Assembly: GCA_934149105.1 (NCBI GenBank)
Contig: CAKPDP010000002.1
Coordinates: 49,700-113,699, forward strand
From: an uncultured Bacilli bacterium
GTDB lineage: Bacteria > Bacillota_I > Bacilli_A > RF39 > UBA660
DNA: 64,000 bases
Direction: 5' to 3'
The translations under genes were made by a program, and so were the position numbers. Of this stretch, positions 28,045 through 62,931 are shown one piece after another; within the stretch, counting starts at the first letter, position 1, and the number at the start of each line of letters is the position of its first letter. Under the pieces are notes generated by a model that did not search any database, was not told the origin of the DNA, and saw nothing but the letters and a program-made list of their open reading frames with translations.

Positions 28045-28305
28045 ATGAATATATATTTGATAGAACAGTACGTTAATAAAATTACAAAGAAAGATATAAA
28101 TAAATTTTTTCTGAATAGAGGAATTAATTTAACAAAAAGAGAATTAGACTGTTTATATGATCATTTAAAGAAAGATTATAAAACATTTATTTATGGTAAT
28201 CAGAGAGCAATAATGGATGAAATAAAAAAAGAAGTAGAGCCTAATACTTATAATCAGTTAGAAATGCTCTACTATCAATATAAAGATAAATTAAATTTTA
28301 ATTAA
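28045..28305 (+). CDS. Small hypothetical protein
   Basis: 86 aa ORF on the plus strand, divergent from the PBP; no recognisable motif. Confidence 0.3.
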   Translation: MNIYLIEQYVNKITKKDINKFFLNRGINLTKRELDCLYDHLKKDYKTFIYGNQRAIMDEIKKEVEPNTYNQLEMLYYQYKDKLNFN

Positions 28306-28890
28306 TTTTCAGAATTAACTTCGTAACCATTTTTTATTACTAGGACTAAACCTTTTAGTTTAGAGTTAGTAGTTTTAAGATTAAATTTACGATAGTCATA
28401 TTTTAAGTATTCGTCATCAGTAGTAAGATAATAGTGATCAGAAAAGACTTTTTTATCTATATCTTCTACTATTTCTTTTAAATCCATATAGCCGGTATCA
28501 TCGATCATTCCAAGACCAGATCCATCAATAATCCTTTGATAACGATAACATAAACTATTTTTTCTTCTCTTGATCCTAAATAAGTTATAGTAAAATCATC
28601 GGGTGTTCCAAGATCATATTCCATTTCTAGTTTGTCATTCTCATTTAATTTAAGATTAGTTAGTCTAGTTTTAGAAGCGTATTGATAATCAGGAAAATCT
28701 GATAAATCATTAAAACTACTGTATTTATCATTTTTATAAGTTATGTTATAAGAATGATACGCTAAGGAATTAAAGCTTGCTAAGATAGTATAGGCCAGAT
28801 CGGCAATGGTACTATTAGAATTTACTTCTATTTACGCCAAATTTTAGTTTCTAAATCTTTGATCCCAATTTCAAATAGAAAAACTTCATT
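28302..28890 (-). pseudogene. Disrupted pRiA4b ORF-3-like family gene (in-frame stop plus at least 2 frameshifts)
   Basis: Three consecutive minus-strand frames read MNEVFLFEIGIKDLETKIWRK* / EVNSNSTIADLAYTILASF...LEMEYDLGTPDDFTITYLG... / ...MIDDTGYMDLKEIVEDIDKKVFSDHYY...; the IWRK motif and the acidic DFxxxWEHEI-like segment resemble the PRiA4_ORF3 domain. Confidence 0.45.
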
Positions 28891-28988
28891 CATAATATTT
28901 TTCCTCCTTTATTATGAAATTTAGGTTAAATACTGGTTGTTGGTATTATTAAATAATAGCAAAATGAGAAAAAAGCAACTAAAAAATA

Positions 28989-29037
28989 AGTTATCGACCA
29001 CTTTTTGGTGCTTGTATGTCAAAAGTGATCGATAACT
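28989..29037. repeat. 17 bp inverted repeat (AGTTATCGACCACTTTT ... AAAAGTGATCGATAACT, one mismatch) with a 14 nt loop, flanked by A/T runs
   Basis: Read directly from the sequence; could act as a bidirectional terminator-like hairpin. Confidence 0.5.
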
Positions 29038-29240
29038 CATGCTTTTTTTATGATTTTTCAATATTTTATTTTAAATCTTCTTTATTATAAATAAAATCTA
29101 CTATATTAACATTATTTATTCCGTTTATATTTTTCTAATTGAAATTCTATAAATAACCTAAGTGTTGAATGATAATCTTTTTGTTATATTTTTTTATTAA
29201 TATTATTTATTTTTTATCGTAATACTATACAAGTTAAAAT

Positions 29241-29308
29241 ACCGGGCTGACACCGTTGGTGTTGTTCGCATTGTTGTTGTTGAAGTTGTTAGGCGAACCC
29301 GACCACCA
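29241..29308 (-). repeat. Template-repeat-like, AAC-codon-rich partial copy of the 3' end of the 29604..31403 gene (DGR TR-like; shorter than the VR)
   Basis: Minus-strand TGGTGGTCGGGTTCGCCTAACAACTTCAACAACAACAATGCGAACAACACCAACGGTGTCAGCCCGGTA aligns with the gene 3' end; most mismatches fall on adenines of this copy. Confidence 0.5.
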
Positions 29309-29603
29309 CACAAGCAGAGAGAACTCGGGATCCAGAATTTTTTTACGGTTTAATCCTAAGTTAATCTATATTAAACTACATAATTATATAGCTTAACCCA
29401 ATTTTTCTAAAAAAGTTTTCCTTTCTTTAAAATTCTAACATCTAATTCTAGCAAGTTCATTCTGAACTTGCTATCTCCCACCCGGCCACCTTTATATATT
29501 TTTATTATCTTTGTTTTTACTATGCTGTTAGTTTGCTTGCCCTCAAAGGGTTTCTCGGGCTTTTTCTCAGTCTAAAGAGTACTGGGACTTAGTTTTGATT
29601 TTT

Positions 29604-31403
29604 TTACGAAATTACGTATGGACTCGTGCTAGTTCCCGATCCTGAGGTGCCTATCCCAGGGGCTAAAGAAACGACCGGCCGAACCCCGTTGGTGGACCTC
29701 ACAGAGTCGCTATCGTAGAGGCCACCACGGGAACCCACGAACCAGGCGTACGCATAGCCGTTGCTGTTGAAGTGGGAAGGCGAACCCGGCCACCAAGAAT
29801 CGTTATTGTTTAAATAATAAGTAGAATTGTCGGACTTGTAGAAGTGGTATATTCCACCTGCATACATTACCTCATCAATTGTTATTAAACCTACAGGATA
29901 TGTAAGTTTTCCATTTCCTATACTAGAGTCTACTGTAAAGGCATCATTACTATTACTACAGTCTAGACTTGGTTTATGGGTTTCTGTTCTAGTATTACCT
30001 GCAAAAGTATTATCATCAGTACTAGAAGTATCTTTACTTAGTAAAGGTCCACTAATAATAGTTCGGTCATTGCAATAAATTGTATCTTCTAACTTATCTG
30101 TATAACTAGTCATATTAGTCTTATACCAATTATCAATTGTTGTTTTTATTTTAGAATCTGTAGTATTAGTAAACATCTTTGTTTTAGCCGTTTCAATATT
30201 ATCTCCTCCAGTTAGGGTTAAATAAGATACCCTTGAACTATTTCCAAAATAATGAATATAATAAACACTACTACAAGTAGCACTAGTACTTAGACAAGTA
30301 TAATGATATTTTGTTGCCAAAGTTTTATAATCTGTACTCCAACTACTACTAGTCATCGTATCTTTTAAGGTATATGTACCATTAGAATATGTTACATCAT
30401 TTCCATAGACATAAGTATCAGTGACACTACTCATATCTTTAAAAAATGAAACATATCTAGTTCCATACATATAGCCGACATCGGCAGGACTACTACTATA
30501 ATTATTATTAAAAGCACTAGTTCCTATTTGAGTTGCTTCTCCAGTTGTATTAGTACACTGATTATCAGTAGGTGTTCCATTGTAAATCATTTTAATGCCA
30601 CCAGTATCAGTAGTTCTGATTATTTTCCAACAAAAGCCTGCGAATAAGACATTATTGTTAGTTACAGCTCCTCTAAAATAATAAATAGGATATTGATCTG
30701 AAGCCGTACTACTTAACATGTATAATCCTTTACCATTAGTATCACTACTAATCTTTGAAAAATCAATATTATTATCTAATTCATAATCTAAAGTTACAGT
30801 ATCATCAAATAATGACACCGTACTATCTAATGGTTTAGATAAAGAGTTAGAGCCTGTATTAAATTCTACGATGCCATTAAAACTTCCTTTATCTATATCA
30901 TTTTGTTCAGTATTAGTATCATTTAAATAAACCATTATATAGTAAGTTTTACTAGATCTAGCTTTAATAGTATCTTGTTTAACTAAACTAGATCTAGACA
31001 TACCTCTTTTAGCATTCTCACTGTATGTGGTTTGAGTAGATAATTCTGTCCATTTAAGATTCTTAGAAGTACTACTAGTTAAAGTAACATAACCATCGAC
31101 ATTTACTTTAACACTACCTTCGTTATTTACAGTAATACTATAAATCTGACAAGCTGTATAGCCATTACTATCCTGACATTGGGCTTTTGCAGCATCATTT
31201 AATAAGCTTTCTTTAAGTGGTATTAATTTATCATCTTTAGTAAGTAATTTAACATTCATAGATATTTTAACATTAGCAATACTACCACTAATAGCATTAT
31301 TACTACTACTAACACTAACACTAAAATAAGCATATGTACCAGAAATAAAAGCTACTACAATAGCCATAACAAAAACTAGTAAATATAATTTTTTACCTTT
31401 CAT
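29604..31403 (-). CDS. Secreted protein with a SipW-cognate (TasA/camelysin-type) signal peptide and a DUF1566/C-type-lectin-like C-terminal domain; putative DGR variable protein
   Basis: N-terminus MKGKKLYLLVFVMAIVVAFISGTYAYFS; C-terminus ...YYLNNNDSWWPGSPSHFNSNGYAYAWFVGSRGGLYDSDSVRSTNGVRPVVSL; the last roughly 190 nt are strikingly GC-rich. Confidence 0.6.
   Translation of the reverse strand: MKGKKLYLLVFVMAIVVAFISGTYAYFSVSVSSSNNAISGSIANVKISMNVKLLTKDDKLIPLKESLLNDAAKAQCQDSNGYTACQIYSITVNNEGSVKVNVDGYVTLTSSTSKNLKWTELSTQTTYSENAKRGMSRSSLVKQDTIKARSSKTYYIMVYLNDTNTEQNDIDKGSFNGIVEFNTGSNSLSKPLDSTVSLFDDTVTLDYELDNNIDFSKISSDTNGKGLYMLSSTASDQYPIYYFRGAVTNNNVLFAGFCWKIIRTTDTGGIKMIYNGTPTDNQCTNTTGEATQIGTSAFNNNYSSSPADVGYMYGTRYVSFFKDMSSVTDTYVYGNDVTYSNGTYTLKDTMTSSSWSTDYKTLATKYHYTCLSTSATCSSVYYIHYFGNSSRVSYLTLTGGDNIETAKTKMFTNTTDSKIKTTIDNWYKTNMTSYTDKLEDTIYCNDRTIISGPLLSKDTSSTDDNTFAGNTRTETHKPSLDCSNSNDAFTVDSSIGNGKLTYPVGLITIDEVMYAGGIYHFYKSDNSTYYLNNNDSWWPGSPSHFNSNGYAYAWFVGSRGGLYDSDSVRSTNGVRPVVSLAPGIGTSGSGTSTSPYVIS
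29674..29794 (-). other. Putative DGR variable region (VR) at the 3' end of the 29604..31403 gene
   Basis: Homologous to the TR-like copy at 29241..29308; the differences sit mostly where that copy has A; a GC-rich IMH-like element GGGGTTCGGCCGGTCG lies at the 3' boundary. Confidence 0.45.
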
Positions 31404-60207: not shown

Positions 60208-61074
60208 ATGAAGGAGAAAAAGCAATCTTGGCAGGTAGTGAGGAAGGCTATGTTGGTGGATTTTTTGGGTGAAGTTAAGACCGATGTTAGCAGGAAAGAT
60301 TTGAAAAATTATATAAAATACGAAATGGTAACGGTGAATGGAAAGACGGTTACCCGAGCAACACAGGAGGTTACTGCTGGTGATGAGGTCTCTTTATTTT
60401 ATCAGAAAGTTGTGATGCCAGAATTTAATTTAAGGATTTTGTATGAGGATAAGGATCTAATTGTTATCGATAAACCTGGTGGGCTGTTGTCTATTAGTAA
60501 TGATAAGGAAAAAGAGATTACGGCTTTTAAGATGGTTAGGAGTTATGTGAGAAAGAAGGATCCAAAGTGTTTTTTATTTGCTATTCATAGGTTGGATCAG
60601 GAAACATCAGGGGTATTAATGTTTGGAAAGAATCCCGCTATTAAGGAAAAGTTGCAGGAAAATTGGAATGAAATAGTAAAAAAGAGGGGGTACTGGGCAA
60701 TTGTTCCTGGGACTTTACAAAAAAAGAAGGGCCGTTTTGCTTCTTATCTTAAGGAAGATAGGACGGGAAGAGTTTATTCAGCAAGGGATAAACATGGAAA
60801 ATATGCTATTACGAATTATGAGGTTTTGAGAAGTAATGGGAAATATAGTTTGTTAGATGTGAATATCGAAACAGGAAGGAGAAATCAGATCAGAGTTCAT
60901 CTTAGTGAGGCTGGATTCCCTATTGTGGGCGATAAGAAATATGGCTCTAAGGATAATGGTATGGGGAGATTGGCTTTGCATGCGTATGAGTTGGATTTGA
61001 TTGATCCTAGGAACGGAGAACTGATGAAGTTTAGGAGTGAGAGGCCACAGGAATTTGATGAGTTTGTTAGATAG
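60208..61074 (+). CDS. RluA-family 23S rRNA/tRNA pseudouridine synthase with an S4 domain
   Basis: HRLDQETSGVLMFGKN catalytic Asp motif; N-terminal S4-like region. Confidence 0.8.
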   Translation: MKEKKQSWQVVRKAMLVDFLGEVKTDVSRKDLKNYIKYEMVTVNGKTVTRATQEVTAGDEVSLFYQKVVMPEFNLRILYEDKDLIVIDKPGGLLSISNDKEKEITAFKMVRSYVRKKDPKCFLFAIHRLDQETSGVLMFGKNPAIKEKLQENWNEIVKKRGYWAIVPGTLQKKKGRFASYLKEDRTGRVYSARDKHGKYAITNYEVLRSNGKYSLLDVNIETGRRNQIRVHLSEAGFPIVGDKKYGSKDNGMGRLALHAYELDLIDPRNGELMKFRSERPQEFDEFVR

Positions 61075-61335
61075 ATATAGAGATAAAAGAAGAAATAAGG
61101 AAAACCACATTCAAAAAATTTGATGTGGTTTTTAGGTTGATATTAGATTTTTGTGAATGTTTTTATGATGTAATGATGTTGGCAATTATTTTTTTATTGT
61201 CATTTTTCTAGGTTAACGATTTTTCTCTTGAGATTTTTTTCTGAGCTGGTGATTATTTTTTTATTGATATTTCCTTCTAAATTGATGTTTCTTCTTTTGC
61301 CGATATTTTATTTTTAGGATCTATTTTTTAGAAAT

Positions 61336-62340
61336 TTATTTTATTTTTAGAGTTTGGCCGATGGTTAGGGTGTTAGTTGTTAGGTTGTTGAGATTTTTTA
61401 ATTCTGAGACTGTTAGTCCGTACTTGTTGGCTATGGAGTATAGAGTATCACCACTTTTAACGGTATAGGTTGTATTAGAAGTAGTGGTGCCATCGGTGGT
61501 AGATGGAACTTTGATCACTTGACCGATACTTAGAAGATTGCTGGTTAAATTATTTAGGTTTTTTAGGGTAGTTATGTTGGTATTGTATTTGTTAGCGATG
61601 GAATATAAGGTATCACCACTTTTGACTGTGTAGGTTGTAGTAGAAGTAGGTTGAGTTGTGGCGGTTGGTTTTATTTTTAGAACTTGACCAATGGTTAGAG
61701 TATTGGTTGTCAGGTTGTTGAGATTTTTTAATTCTGAGACTGTTAGTCCGTACTTGTTGGCTATGGAATATAGACTATCACCACTTTTGACTGTATATGT
61801 TGCGATGTCAGGTTGATTAGTAGTTGGGGATTCTGATTCGTTTGGCAATTCAATGGTATCTATTGGTAGGCGTAGTTTTTGGCCCTGTTTAAGAGTAGTG
61901 CTGGTGAGGTTATTTAAATTAATTATTTCTTCTTGGGTAAGGCCGTAAGCTTTGGCGATGGATTCTAAGGTATCACCTGATTTGACGATATAGGTTATTA
62001 CTTCACTCACTTCGGTTGGGCCAACAGTGGTTGTAGTAGGAATTTTTAGGACTTGACCGATGTTTAGAGTGTTGCTTGTAAGGTTATTTAGGGATTTTAA
62101 ATTATTAACTGTTGTATTGTATTTGGTGGCTATGGAGTATAGGGAGTCACCTTTTTTGACGGTATAGGTTGTGGTTGATGTGGAATTTTGGTAACCTGGT
62201 AACTTTAGAACTTGACCGATTGAGAGGTTATTTGATGTGAGATTATTGAGATTTTTTAGAGTGGCGACAGTGGTGTTATACTTGGTGGCTATGGAGTATA
62301 AGGAGTCGCCTTTTTTGACGGTATACGTTGTGGTAGTGCT
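61336..62340. repeat. Intragenic near-identical DNA repeats encoding the LysM modules
   Basis: For example, 61336-61470 and 61676-61810 are about 90-95% identical. Confidence 0.6.
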
Positions 62341-62931
62341 AGAGGTAAAGGGAGATGTATATTTTATTCCTTTATATTCGGAGACGGCTTTGATGACGGC
62401 TTCGGCTAGTTGTTTATAGTTATCGTTTAGGAATTTGGCATTTTCTGGAGTGTCGTCAATGAAGCCGTATTCTACTATTAGGCTTTCGGTGTCACCGGTG
62501 TTACGGTGCATAAAGTAATAGTCTTTACTGGTATCACTAGGAAGGCGACGTTGATAGTATTTTCTGGTGCTTTGGCCAGTGGCTCTGATGTTTTCGAGGA
62601 TTTTGCTGGCAAGGGTTGGGTTGTTGCGGAGGGCGTAGATTACTTCGGCGCCTGTACCACCTCCGGCATTCAAGTGATTAGATATCACTATAACATTGGG
62701 ATTATTTCCATAAGCTGATAAAACTTTATTTACTCTTTCCGTCGGAGTTAGGCTTGTATCACTATCTCTAGTTAAAGTTACTGGTATTCCTAATTCTTTA
62801 AAGCGATCATACATGTATTTACTTATTTTTAAAGTATAATCTTTTTCGTATTGATTATTACCTGTAGCTCCACTATCAGTTCCTCCATGTCCTGGATCAA
62901 TTACAACTCCAACTAAGTTATTATTATTCAT
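61336..62931 (-). CDS. N-acetylmuramoyl-L-alanine amidase (Amidase_3) with six LysM repeats
   Basis: VIDPGHGGTDSGA Amidase_3 motif; repeated YTVKKGDSLYSIA...GQVLKIP LysM modules. Confidence 0.85.
   Translation of the reverse strand: MNNNNLVGVVIDPGHGGTDSGATGNNQYEKDYTLKISKYMYDRFKELGIPVTLTRDSDTSLTPTERVNKVLSAYGNNPNVIVISNHLNAGGGTGAEVIYALRNNPTLASKILENIRATGQSTRKYYQRRLPSDTSKDYYFMHRNTGDTESLIVEYGFIDDTPENAKFLNDNYKQLAEAVIKAVSEYKGIKYTSPFTSSTTTTYTVKKGDSLYSIATKYNTTVATLKNLNNLTSNNLSIGQVLKLPGYQNSTSTTTYTVKKGDSLYSIATKYNTTVNNLKSLNNLTSNTLNIGQVLKIPTTTTVGPTEVSEVITYIVKSGDTLESIAKAYGLTQEEIINLNNLTSTTLKQGQKLRLPIDTIELPNESESPTTNQPDIATYTVKSGDSLYSIANKYGLTVSELKNLNNLTTNTLTIGQVLKIKPTATTQPTSTTTYTVKSGDTLYSIANKYNTNITTLKNLNNLTSNLLSIGQVIKVPSTTDGTTTSNTTYTVKSGDTLYSIANKYGLTVSELKNLNNLTTNTLTIGQTLKIK

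What the first reader, a model, noticed from the sequence alone, without database searches (positions are those of the whole stretch)
29236..29830. Sharp GC-rich islands (over 55% GC) inside an approximately 27% GC genome
Two patches, 29640-29810 (the last roughly 60 codons of the secreted-protein gene) and 29241-29330 (intergenic), are strongly GC-rich against an extremely AT-rich background. There are further short GC-rich motifs at 29470-29495 (CTCCCACCCGGCCACC) and 29545-29575 (GCCCTCAAAGGGTTTCTCGGGC, able to form a hairpin). This compositional discontinuity argues for horizontally acquired or sequence-constrained DNA (for example, sequence propagated by retrohoming), not native coding drift.
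Basis: seen in the sequence. Interest (0 to 1): 0.5.

Follow-up and report, generated by a model that had tools for sequence, protein, structure and literature searches.

The report
Fossil DGR repeats cause GC islands
The two GC-rich patches are the variable repeat and a shortened template repeat of a diversity-generating retroelement whose reverse transcriptase is missing from this window, so this is a known mutagenesis system seen in decayed form.

Summary
The GC islands are real. The patch at 29640-29810 is 58.5% GC and the patch at 29241-29330 is 53.3% GC, in a window of 29.9% GC. The first is the strongest GC outlier in the 64 kb.

They are the variable repeat (VR, 29676-29795, minus strand; last 40 codons but 23 of a 599-aa secreted protein with a C-type-lectin-like fold) and a template repeat (TR, 29243-29308) of a diversity-generating retroelement (DGR). 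In the 5' block, 8 of 9 TR/VR mismatches fall on TR adenines.

Seven related loci from low-GC MAGs carry full-length TRs of the same family, each followed by a reverse transcriptase. Five of them (L003, L004, L006, L007, L010) also show a conserved hairpin after the TR, and a small accessory ORF was read in L004 and L007. They show the same GC spikes at TR and VR, while the surrounding DNA of each locus, including the RT gene, is AT-rich.

The composition is therefore imposed by the template (AAC codons, adenine-free scaffold codons, A-to-N randomisation). It does not come from a GC-rich donor.

Here the element is decayed. The TR lacks 18 codons, its 3' end has diverged from the VR, and the post-TR hairpin, accessory gene and RT are absent from the window. 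The VR is identical in three assemblies.

This is a known kind of system and of modest interest.

The parts
29604..31403 (-). Target (variable-protein) gene, 599 aa. It has an N-terminal hydrophobic helix, a beta-sandwich region, and a C-terminal region with a C-type-lectin-like fold.
29676..29795 (-). Variable repeat (VR): 40 codons, WWPGSP...GVRP. This is the main GC island (GC 0.633, GC3 0.775, A 0.13).
   Evidence: Among the 7 closest homologues, the block at residues 543-572 is 27% identical while the rest of the protein is 87% identical.
29667..29693 (-). 3' boundary of the TR/VR homology (IMH-like): ACCAACGGGGTTCGGCCGGTCGTTTCT.
   Evidence: It aligns to 29234-29260 of the TR. The mismatches there are not adenine-specific.
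29604..29675 (-). Gene tail after the VR (VVSLAPGIGTSGSGTSTSPYVIS and stop). GC is 0.50-0.52. It lies outside the TR homology.
   Evidence: Amino-acid content alone predicts GC 0.45. GC3 is 0.435, moderately raised. No significant DNA hairpin (z = +0.93).
29449..29603 (-). 3' untranslated flank of the target gene. It is shared with a paralogue that has no TR (L009). It holds the motif at 29539-29560, a third copy of the VR 5'-end 11-mer at 29480-29490, and a perfect 9-bp hairpin at 29450-29472.
   Evidence: The blastn match to L009 extends down to 29449. Sequences compared. The 11-mer occurs 3 times against 0.03 expected.
29383..29411 (-). Promoter-like site (TTTAGA, 17 nt spacer, TATAAT) just upstream of the TR leader.
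   Evidence: Consensus scan, 10 of 12 matches. This is a consensus match only.
29346..29399 (-). TR leader: a stem-loop (29355-29399) overlapping the box TTAGGATTAAACCG (29346-29359). It is homologous to the element upstream of every TR in the intact relatives.
   Evidence: Alignment A2. Upstream sequences of 8 loci, with compensatory stem changes in L006 and L012.
29243..29308 (-). Template repeat relic (TR): 22 codons, WWSGSPNNFNNNNANNTNGVSP, with 8 AAC and 1 AAT codons. GC 0.53. It lacks 18 codons present in the VR and in full-length family TRs.
   Evidence: Full-length TRs of 37-39 codons in L003-L007, L010 and L012.
28900..29242 (-). The place where the post-TR hairpin, the accessory ORF and the RT lie in the full cassette (as read in L004 and L007). 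Here it is AT-rich sequence with none of them.
   Evidence: No GGTGAAATTTRGC motif. No YxDD motif in an RT context. tblastn with the L004 and L007 accessory proteins and RTs gives E > 0.6 over the whole window.

Best explanation
The GC islands are the two repeats of a diversity-generating retroelement (DGR). In an intact member of this family the gene order, seen complete in L007, is: target gene with VR, spacer, leader hairpin, TR, hairpin, small accessory ORF, RT.

How the mechanism works (established for DGRs generally, inferred for this family). The RT copies the TR RNA and misreads adenines. The resulting cDNA replaces the VR at the 3' end of the target gene.

Why this makes GC islands. 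The TR is built of AAC codons at diversified positions and adenine-free codons at scaffold positions (Trp, Gly, Ser, Pro, Ala, Val, Arg). It is therefore GC-rich whatever the host's bias. Each homing event writes that composition into the VR, and A-to-N randomisation raises GC further. This is why the VR (63% GC) is richer than the TR (53% GC).

State of this locus. The element is a relic. The TR has lost 18 codons inside its AAC runs. Its 3' end has drifted from the VR at non-adenine sites. Everything downstream of the TR (hairpin, accessory gene, RT) has been lost from this position. The VR is most likely frozen and is kept only as ordinary coding sequence.

Shown here: repeat identity, adenine-specific mismatches, family membership of the TR, absence of the RT and accessory gene from the window, and the composition pattern across relatives.

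Inferred: that the local TR was the former donor, that deletion caused the loss, and that homing has ceased.
For: TR/VR relationship. Direct repeats lie at 29236-29261 / 29669-29694 and at 29273-29308 / 29760-29795. In the 5' block, 8 of 16 TR adenines are changed against 1 of 32 other bases (Fisher p = 2.5e-4).

Family of intact elements. A TR-derived pattern found 5 genome loci and 3 metagenome loci. Seven carry full-length TRs (WWxGSPNNFNNNNAN...NNNNVNN..GVRP) with an RT (YMDD) 1.2-1.4 kb downstream. The small ORF between TR and RT was read in L004 and L007. L007 has the full cassette with its target gene immediately upstream. In L007, 18 of 20 TR/VR mismatches fall on adenines (p = 3e-9).

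The RT is of DGR type. The best match among solved structures is a 328-aa reverse transcriptase (8ub7, E 1.4e-28), far ahead of group II intron RTs (1e-12). Its phage matches include DGR-carrying phages such as nd12, ANMV-1, Bordetella phages and Faecalibacterium phages.

The TR leader of the window aligns with those of the intact loci.

Composition. In all 5 target genes analysed, VR GC3 is 0.71-0.81 against 0.14-0.18 in the gene body. GC spikes at VR and/or TR are the top outliers in L001-L007. In TRs, AAC outnumbers AAT 95 to 23, while hosts use AAC for 0-20% of Asn codons. Among degenerate adenine-free TR codons, 77 of 123 end in G or C against 36 expected.

Decay. The TR has a 54-nt shortfall. 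Four non-adenine differences lie in the 3' GC segment, which is identical between TR and VR in L006 and L007. No RT or accessory gene is present. VR, spacer and TR are identical in L008, and VR and spacer in L013, whose contig ends at the TR.
Against: Only 64 kb of the genome is visible, so an RT with a full-length TR may exist elsewhere. Related target genes in L001, L002 and L009 have GC-rich VRs but no TR or RT within 10 kb, so action in trans seems normal in this clade.

The three assemblies with identical VRs are nearly the same strain: the flanks are identical over 9.8 kb. VR identity is therefore weak evidence of inactivity.

A one-codon indel between TR and VR also occurs in the intact L007 cassette, so not every TR/VR irregularity means decay.

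TRs of the family are related sequences, so the p-values overstate independence.

The small ORF between TR and RT has no Pfam, NCBIfam or PDB sequence match. Calling it Avd-like rests on position and size only.
Confidence: 0.82

Rival explanations
1. The VR is still being diversified, by a complete DGR (RT plus full-length TR) elsewhere in the same genome. The local short TR is only a leftover of a duplicated or broken cassette.
For: Paralogous and orthologous target genes in L001, L002 and L009 have strongly GC-rich, hypervariable VRs with no TR or RT nearby. The 3' end GTCGTTTCTTTAGC is shared by the VRs of the window, L001, L002, L009 and L014, so one trans-acting element could recognise them all.
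Against: The VR is identical in three assemblies from different samples, although these are near-clonal. No RT is present in 64 kb. Nothing in the available data shows within-population variation.
Confidence: 0.2
2. The islands are DNA recently acquired from a GC-rich donor.
For: The compositional break is sharp. Wu et al. 2018 (PMC5758913) use atypical GC content as a sign of DGR transfer in about 20% of cases.
Against: The break coincides with the 40 VR codons inside a gene whose other 536 codons are host-like (GC 0.29, GC3 0.14). The same pattern is seen in loci of 21-31% GC whose remaining sequence, RT gene included, is AT-rich. The paralogue L009 shares both gene body and 3' flank.
Confidence: 0.03
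3. The GC-richness merely reflects the amino-acid content (Trp, Gly, Pro, Ala, Arg, Ser) of the C-terminal domain.
For: Amino-acid content with host codon usage predicts GC 0.45 for the VR and 0.45 for the tail, well above the 0.31 coding average. This accounts for most of the tail's 0.52.
Against: Observed VR GC is 0.63 and GC3 is 0.775, against 0.21 for the host. Synonymous sites carry most of the excess. This rival also cannot explain the non-coding TR island.
Confidence: 0.03
4. The intergenic GC patch and spacer motifs are a structured non-coding RNA or a regulatory element unrelated to a DGR.
For: The 381-nt spacer plus TR folds somewhat better than shuffles as RNA (z = -2.4). A conserved stem-loop precedes every TR.
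Against: No Rfam family matches in the window or in the related loci. The conserved stem-loop always accompanies a TR followed by an RT in the relatives, so it belongs to the DGR. The motif at 29539-29560 does not fold better than chance.
Confidence: 0.02

Closest known systems
Diversity-generating retroelements (prototype: Bordetella phage BPP-1 mtd-avd-TR-brt; surveys by Wu et al. 2018, PMC5758913, and Roux et al. 2021, PMC8144416)
   Same: There is a TR/VR pair with adenine-specific differences. The VR lies at the 3' end of a gene for a C-type-lectin-fold protein. The TR is rich in AAC codons. GC-rich constant segments flank the mutagenised part, as Wu et al. describe for DGRs in general. 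The 3' boundary has non-identical TR and VR sequences.
   Different: There is no RT and no accessory gene in the window. The TR is 54 nt shorter than the VR. The post-TR RNA element found in relatives is missing. No GC-rich hairpin with a GRNA loop lies downstream of the VR (Guo et al. 2011, PMC3240598). In the intact relatives the order is target, TR, accessory ORF, RT, and the TR has its own conserved leader hairpin.
Treponema denticola TvpA and Legionella Lcl/LdtA-type cellular DGR targets; DUF6273 C-lec targets of gut phage DGRs (tentaclins, PMC10743442)
DGRs with remote (trans) targets, and inactive DGRs (Roux et al. 2021)
   Same: Relatives show VR-bearing genes far from any RT. Roux et al. 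note that remote targets exist and classify some DGRs as inactive from population data.
   Different: Here a physically truncated TR remains beside its target while the enzymatic module is gone. This is a decay intermediate, not a remote target. A second, independently truncated TR was found in L011.

Membership tests
Diversity-generating retroelement (DGR) | A DGR-clade reverse transcriptase encoded next to the TR | tested here: not met
   No RT anywhere in the 64 kb: no YxDD in an RT context, and tblastn with two family RTs gives E > 0.6. The feature is met in relatives L003-L007 and L010.
Diversity-generating retroelement (DGR) | A TR/VR repeat pair whose differences fall on TR adenines | tested here: met
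   In the 5' block, 8 of 16 adenines are changed against 1 of 32 other bases, p = 2.5e-4.
Diversity-generating retroelement (DGR) | TR and VR colinear and of equal length, so that cDNA can replace the VR | tested here: not met
   The VR has 40 codons and the TR 22. The gaps are 1 and 17 codons. Full-length family TRs have 37-39 codons.
Diversity-generating retroelement (DGR) | IMH in the VR and IMH* in the TR: a GC-rich shared segment followed by divergent sequence at the 3' end | tested here: inconclusive
   A 3' homology block exists and its mismatches are not adenine-specific. However, the GC segment that is identical between TR and VR in L006 and L007 differs at 4 sites here.
Diversity-generating retroelement (DGR) | An accessory variability determinant (Avd or another accessory gene) | tested here: not met
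   tblastn with the 119-122-aa ORFs of L004 and L007 finds nothing in the window. Even in the relatives the ORF has no Pfam, NCBIfam or PDB sequence match.
Diversity-generating retroelement (DGR) | The VR lies at the C-terminus of a variable protein with a C-type lectin (or Ig) fold | tested here: met
   [not shown]
Diversity-generating retroelement (DGR) | A GC-rich hairpin or cruciform shortly downstream of the VR (present in about a third of DGRs) | tested here: not met
   The 81 nt after the VR fold no better than shuffles (z = +0.93). The spacer motif gives z = -0.12.
Diversity-generating retroelement (DGR) | Ongoing diversification of the VR within or between populations | tested here: inconclusive
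   The VR is identical in the window, L008 and L013, but these are near-clonal. Across the family the block is hypervariable: 27% identity against 87% elsewhere. Read-level data were not available.
Pfam DUF6273 (PF19789) | A match to the family profile above Pfam's gathering score | tested here: not met
   The window protein has no hit at E <= 0.01. The L007 target scores 21.8 bits against a cut-off of 23.5. Precomputed weak hits exist for P0003, P0015 and P0018.

The most novel reading that the evidence does not exclude
Two readings are not excluded.

(a) The extreme synonymous GC enrichment of TR and VR in hosts of 21-30% GC exceeds what adenine avoidance and amino-acid content predict. AAC is used for 80% of Asn codons against 0-20% in hosts, and G/C-ending adenine-free codons are twice as frequent as expected. 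This could reflect a thermodynamic requirement of DGR homing (stability of cDNA-target or RNA-cDNA duplexes) that has not been measured and is visible only in very AT-rich genomes.

(b) The short TR, which keeps its promoter-like site and leader hairpin, may still be transcribed and used in trans by an RT elsewhere. That would produce VRs of variable length.
Probability: 0.1. Interest if true: 0.45.

Novelty: new member of a known kind. Interest (0 to 1): 0.25.

Why it matters
The result explains a striking compositional anomaly by a known mechanism, so the region should not be annotated as foreign DNA or as a new RNA gene.

It gives a practical rule for very AT-rich genomes. A jump in third-codon-position GC (GC3) confined to about 40 codons at a gene's 3' end marks a DGR target even when no RT is nearby, as in L001, L002 and L009.

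It records a decay intermediate of a cellular DGR: target and VR intact, TR internally deleted, enzymes gone. A second independently truncated TR was found in a relative.

It shows that GC enrichment of the TR goes beyond adenine avoidance. That could be tested in reconstituted DGR systems.

Tried and rejected
Searches that found nothing
- Rfam on the window (gathering threshold, and E <= 1 on 29150-29900) and on five related loci gave only tRNAs and chance-level snoRNA matches.
- A search for an RT by YxDD motif and by tblastn with family RTs and accessory proteins was negative.
- Pfam and NCBIfam on the target protein gave no hit.
- A PDB sequence search with a 36-sequence profile gave only chance hits.
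- The viral-contig scan with the TR pattern gave 0 hits.
- Exact-sequence look-ups of the window protein, P0004 and P0006 were not on record.

Analyses that were uninformative or had to be redone
- MAFFT's first TR/VR alignment placed the TR against the second half of the VR with many non-adenine mismatches. I rejected it in favour of the two-block alignment supported by the repeat finder and by the family TRs.

Inference weakened
- VR identity between the window and L008 was first taken as a sign of a frozen VR. It was then weakened, because the two are identical over 9.8 kb apart from one mosaic patch.
Full report
**Observation**

The window is 29.9% GC. No other stretch of that length in the 64 kb reaches this value. 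The second patch, 29241-29330, is 53.3% GC (z = 3.4), just under the stated 55%.

The highest 100-nt GC in the window (0.63) lies at 29581-29835. The other local peaks are tRNA genes or lie inside the ftsZ, glyA and amidase/LysM genes.

GC3 of the last 60 codons is 0.63 for this gene and 0.21 +/- 0.07 for the other 46 ORFs. The richest 40-codon GC3 window of any gene (0.78) begins exactly at codon 537, the first VR codon.

The motif CTCCCACCCGGCCACC is at 29475-29490. The motif GCCCTCAAAGGGTTTCTCGGGC is at 29539-29560, not at 29545-29575.

**What the islands are**

On the minus strand, gene 31403-29604 encodes a 599-aa protein. Its codons 537-576 (29795-29676) read WWPGSPSHFNSNGYAYAWFVGSRGGLYDSDSVRSTNGVRP.

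About 370 nt downstream, in non-coding DNA, 29308-29243 reads in the same sense WWSGSPNNFNNNNANNTNGVSP. It has eight AAC codons and one AAT codon.

The repeat finder links the two regions in two blocks whose spacing differs by 54 nt. In the 5' block, 8 of 16 adenines of the downstream copy are changed in the gene copy, against 1 of 32 other bases (p = 2.5e-4). In the 3' block the differences are not adenine-specific.

This is the signature of a DGR template repeat (TR) and variable repeat (VR) with an IMH/IMH*-like 3' boundary.

**Related loci**

A pattern taken from the TR 5' part found five loci in species-representative genomes and three in metagenomes. All are low-GC contigs labelled as uncultured Bacilli, Mycoplasma and similar.

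Seven of them carry full-length TRs of 37-39 codons (WWxGSPNNFNNNNAN..N.NS.G...NNNNVNN..GVRP). In L003, L004, L006, L007 and L010 the TR is followed by a conserved hairpin (GCTAAATTT...AAATTTAGC or a close variant). An ORF with the YMDD motif lies downstream of the TR in L003-L007 and L010. It is a 487-498-aa RT in the two loci whose ORFs I read, L004 and L007, and those two also have a 119-122-aa ORF between TR and RT.

L007 shows the whole cassette in the order target gene with VR, spacer, TR, small ORF, RT. Its TR/VR differences are 18 of 20 on adenines (p = 3e-9). L006 shows the 3' end of a target gene with its VR upstream of the TR.

The RT matches RVT_1. Its best solved relative is a 328-aa reverse transcriptase, 8ub7 (E 1.4e-28), far better than group II intron RTs. 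From memory, 8ub7 is the Bordetella phage DGR enzyme; I could not confirm this with the tools. Its phage relatives are DGR-carrying phages: nd12, ANMV-1, Bordetella phages and Faecalibacterium phages.

The window's TR leader (a stem-loop plus the box TTAGGATTAAACCG, 29346-29399) aligns with the leaders of these loci. The window's short repeat is therefore a member of this TR family.

**The target protein**

Close homologues have weak DUF6273 hits. DUF6273 has been described as a C-lec-like DGR target domain (PMC10743442).

Among the seven closest homologues, residues 543-572 are 27% identical to the window protein while the rest is 87% identical. This is the hypervariability expected of a DGR target family.

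**Why the repeats are GC-rich**

In the five target genes analysed (window, L001, L002, L007, L009), VR GC3 is 0.71-0.81 against 0.14-0.18 in the gene body. VR adenine content is 0.10-0.17 against 0.37.

In L001-L007, GC spikes at the VR and/or the TR are the strongest outliers, while the rest of each locus, which includes the RT gene, averages 21-31% GC. This speaks against import from a GC-rich donor and for a constraint carried by the template.

The excess has several components.

- Amino-acid content alone predicts GC 0.45 for the window's VR.
- Restricting codons to adenine-free synonyms adds 3-4 points. The observed value is 0.63.
- TRs use AAC 95 times and AAT 23 times, where hosts use AAC for 0-20% of Asn codons.
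- Among degenerate adenine-free TR codons, 77 of 123 end in G or C against 36 expected. The TRs are related, so those p-values are inflated.
- The third-position C of AAC is copied faithfully into the VR. A-to-N randomisation replaces adenines by about half G or C. This explains why the VR (0.63) is richer than the TR (0.53).

Wu et al. 2018 already describe GC-rich constant segments on both sides of the mutagenised part of TR and VR.

The gene tail after the VR (GC 0.52) is mostly explained by its Gly/Ser/Thr/Pro/Ala content (0.45 expected), with a modest unexplained surplus.

**State of this copy**

- The TR lacks 18 of the VR's 40 codons: one codon in the first AAC run and 17 codons between two AAC runs.
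- The GC-rich 3' segment is identical between TR and VR in L006 and L007. Here it differs at four non-adenine positions.
- After the TR there is no family hairpin, no accessory ORF and no RT. None of these is anywhere in the 64 kb.
- Downstream lies AT-rich sequence and a frameshifted PRiA4_ORF3 pseudogene.
- VR, spacer and short TR are identical in L008, and VR and spacer in L013, whose contig ends at the TR. Both come from other samples. These strains are almost clonal, so this is only weak evidence that the VR is frozen.
- A second, independently truncated TR exists in L011.

I conclude that this is a decay intermediate of a cellular DGR.

**What remains open**

Related target genes in L001, L002 and L009 have GC-rich VRs with no TR or RT within 10 kb. 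Action in trans therefore seems common in this clade, and an intact element elsewhere in this genome cannot be excluded.

**The spacer motifs**

The stretch 29603-29449 is the target gene's own 3' flank. It is shared with paralogue L009, which has no TR.

The motif at 29539-29560 does not fold better than chance, and its outer stem is not kept in L009.

The motif at 29475-29490 contains GGTGGCCGGGT, an exact third copy of the VR's 5' end. It occurs 3 times in the window against 0.03 expected. L009 has GATGATGAGGA at that place. I cannot explain this copy. A small conversion from the VR or an aberrant homing event are both possible.

**Verdict**

The retrohoming reading is correct in the historical sense, and the horizontal-transfer reading is not supported. 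The system is a known kind (a DGR), seen here as a relic in a little-studied low-GC lineage. Interest is modest.

Noticed in passing
window 28302-28895 (-): Pseudogene of a PRiA4_ORF3-family protein (PF07929, E 5e-20 when three reading frames are joined). It is interrupted by two frame changes and lies just beyond the place where the RT module would be.
   Followed up: partly
window 30827-31317 (target gene, N-terminal beta-sandwich part): All differences between the window and L008 (33) lie at 30120-31185, all but one of them at 30873-31185. All in-gene differences from L013 (44) lie at 30827-31317. The remaining roughly 9.5 kb shared with L008 is identical. Three alleles of this segment are shuffled among paralogues P0001-P0010. 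This looks like gene conversion among paralogues.
   Followed up: partly
window 29480-29490 (-): Exact 11-nt third copy of the VR 5' end (GGTGGCCGGGT) in the target gene's 3' flank, directly before a perfect 9-bp hairpin (29450-29472). Paralogue L009 has GATGATGAGGA there. Origin unexplained.
   Followed up: partly
L013 1-2470: The same target gene, with identical VR and spacer, sits in a different upstream context (a cadherin-like ORF in place of the ABC-transporter genes). Homology to the window starts 49 nt before the start codon.
   Followed up: no
L004 1372-2835 and L007 3175-4671: The family's RTs have a C-terminal extension with a MutS_I (mismatch-binding domain) match (E about 1.6e-5). 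Wu et al. 2018 reported this for only three DGR RTs.
   Followed up: no
L003-L007, L010-L012, and window 29346-29399: A conserved stem-loop followed by the box YTAGGATTATGYCG lies 30-60 nt upstream of every TR. The stem has compensatory changes in L006 and L012. A second conserved hairpin (GCTAAATTT...AAATTTAGC) follows several of the intact TRs (L003, L004, L006, L007, L010). Neither matches any Rfam family.
   Followed up: partly
L007 2126-2245 against 2531-2650: In an otherwise intact cassette the VR lacks the TTC codon of its TR. A one-codon indel between TR and VR therefore occurs without obvious decay.
   Followed up: partly
L011 3111-3268: A second, independent TR truncation. The TR (nearly identical to that of L005) breaks off after 24 codons and continues into unrelated sequence.
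   Followed up: no
[not shown]
   Followed up: no
window 60208-62931: Two neighbouring genes have GC3 of 0.35-0.37 against the usual 0.21. One of them is the amidase/LysM gene 61336-62931. Codons 85-125 of the amidase reach GC3 0.60, and 62521-62709 is 57% GC.
   Followed up: no
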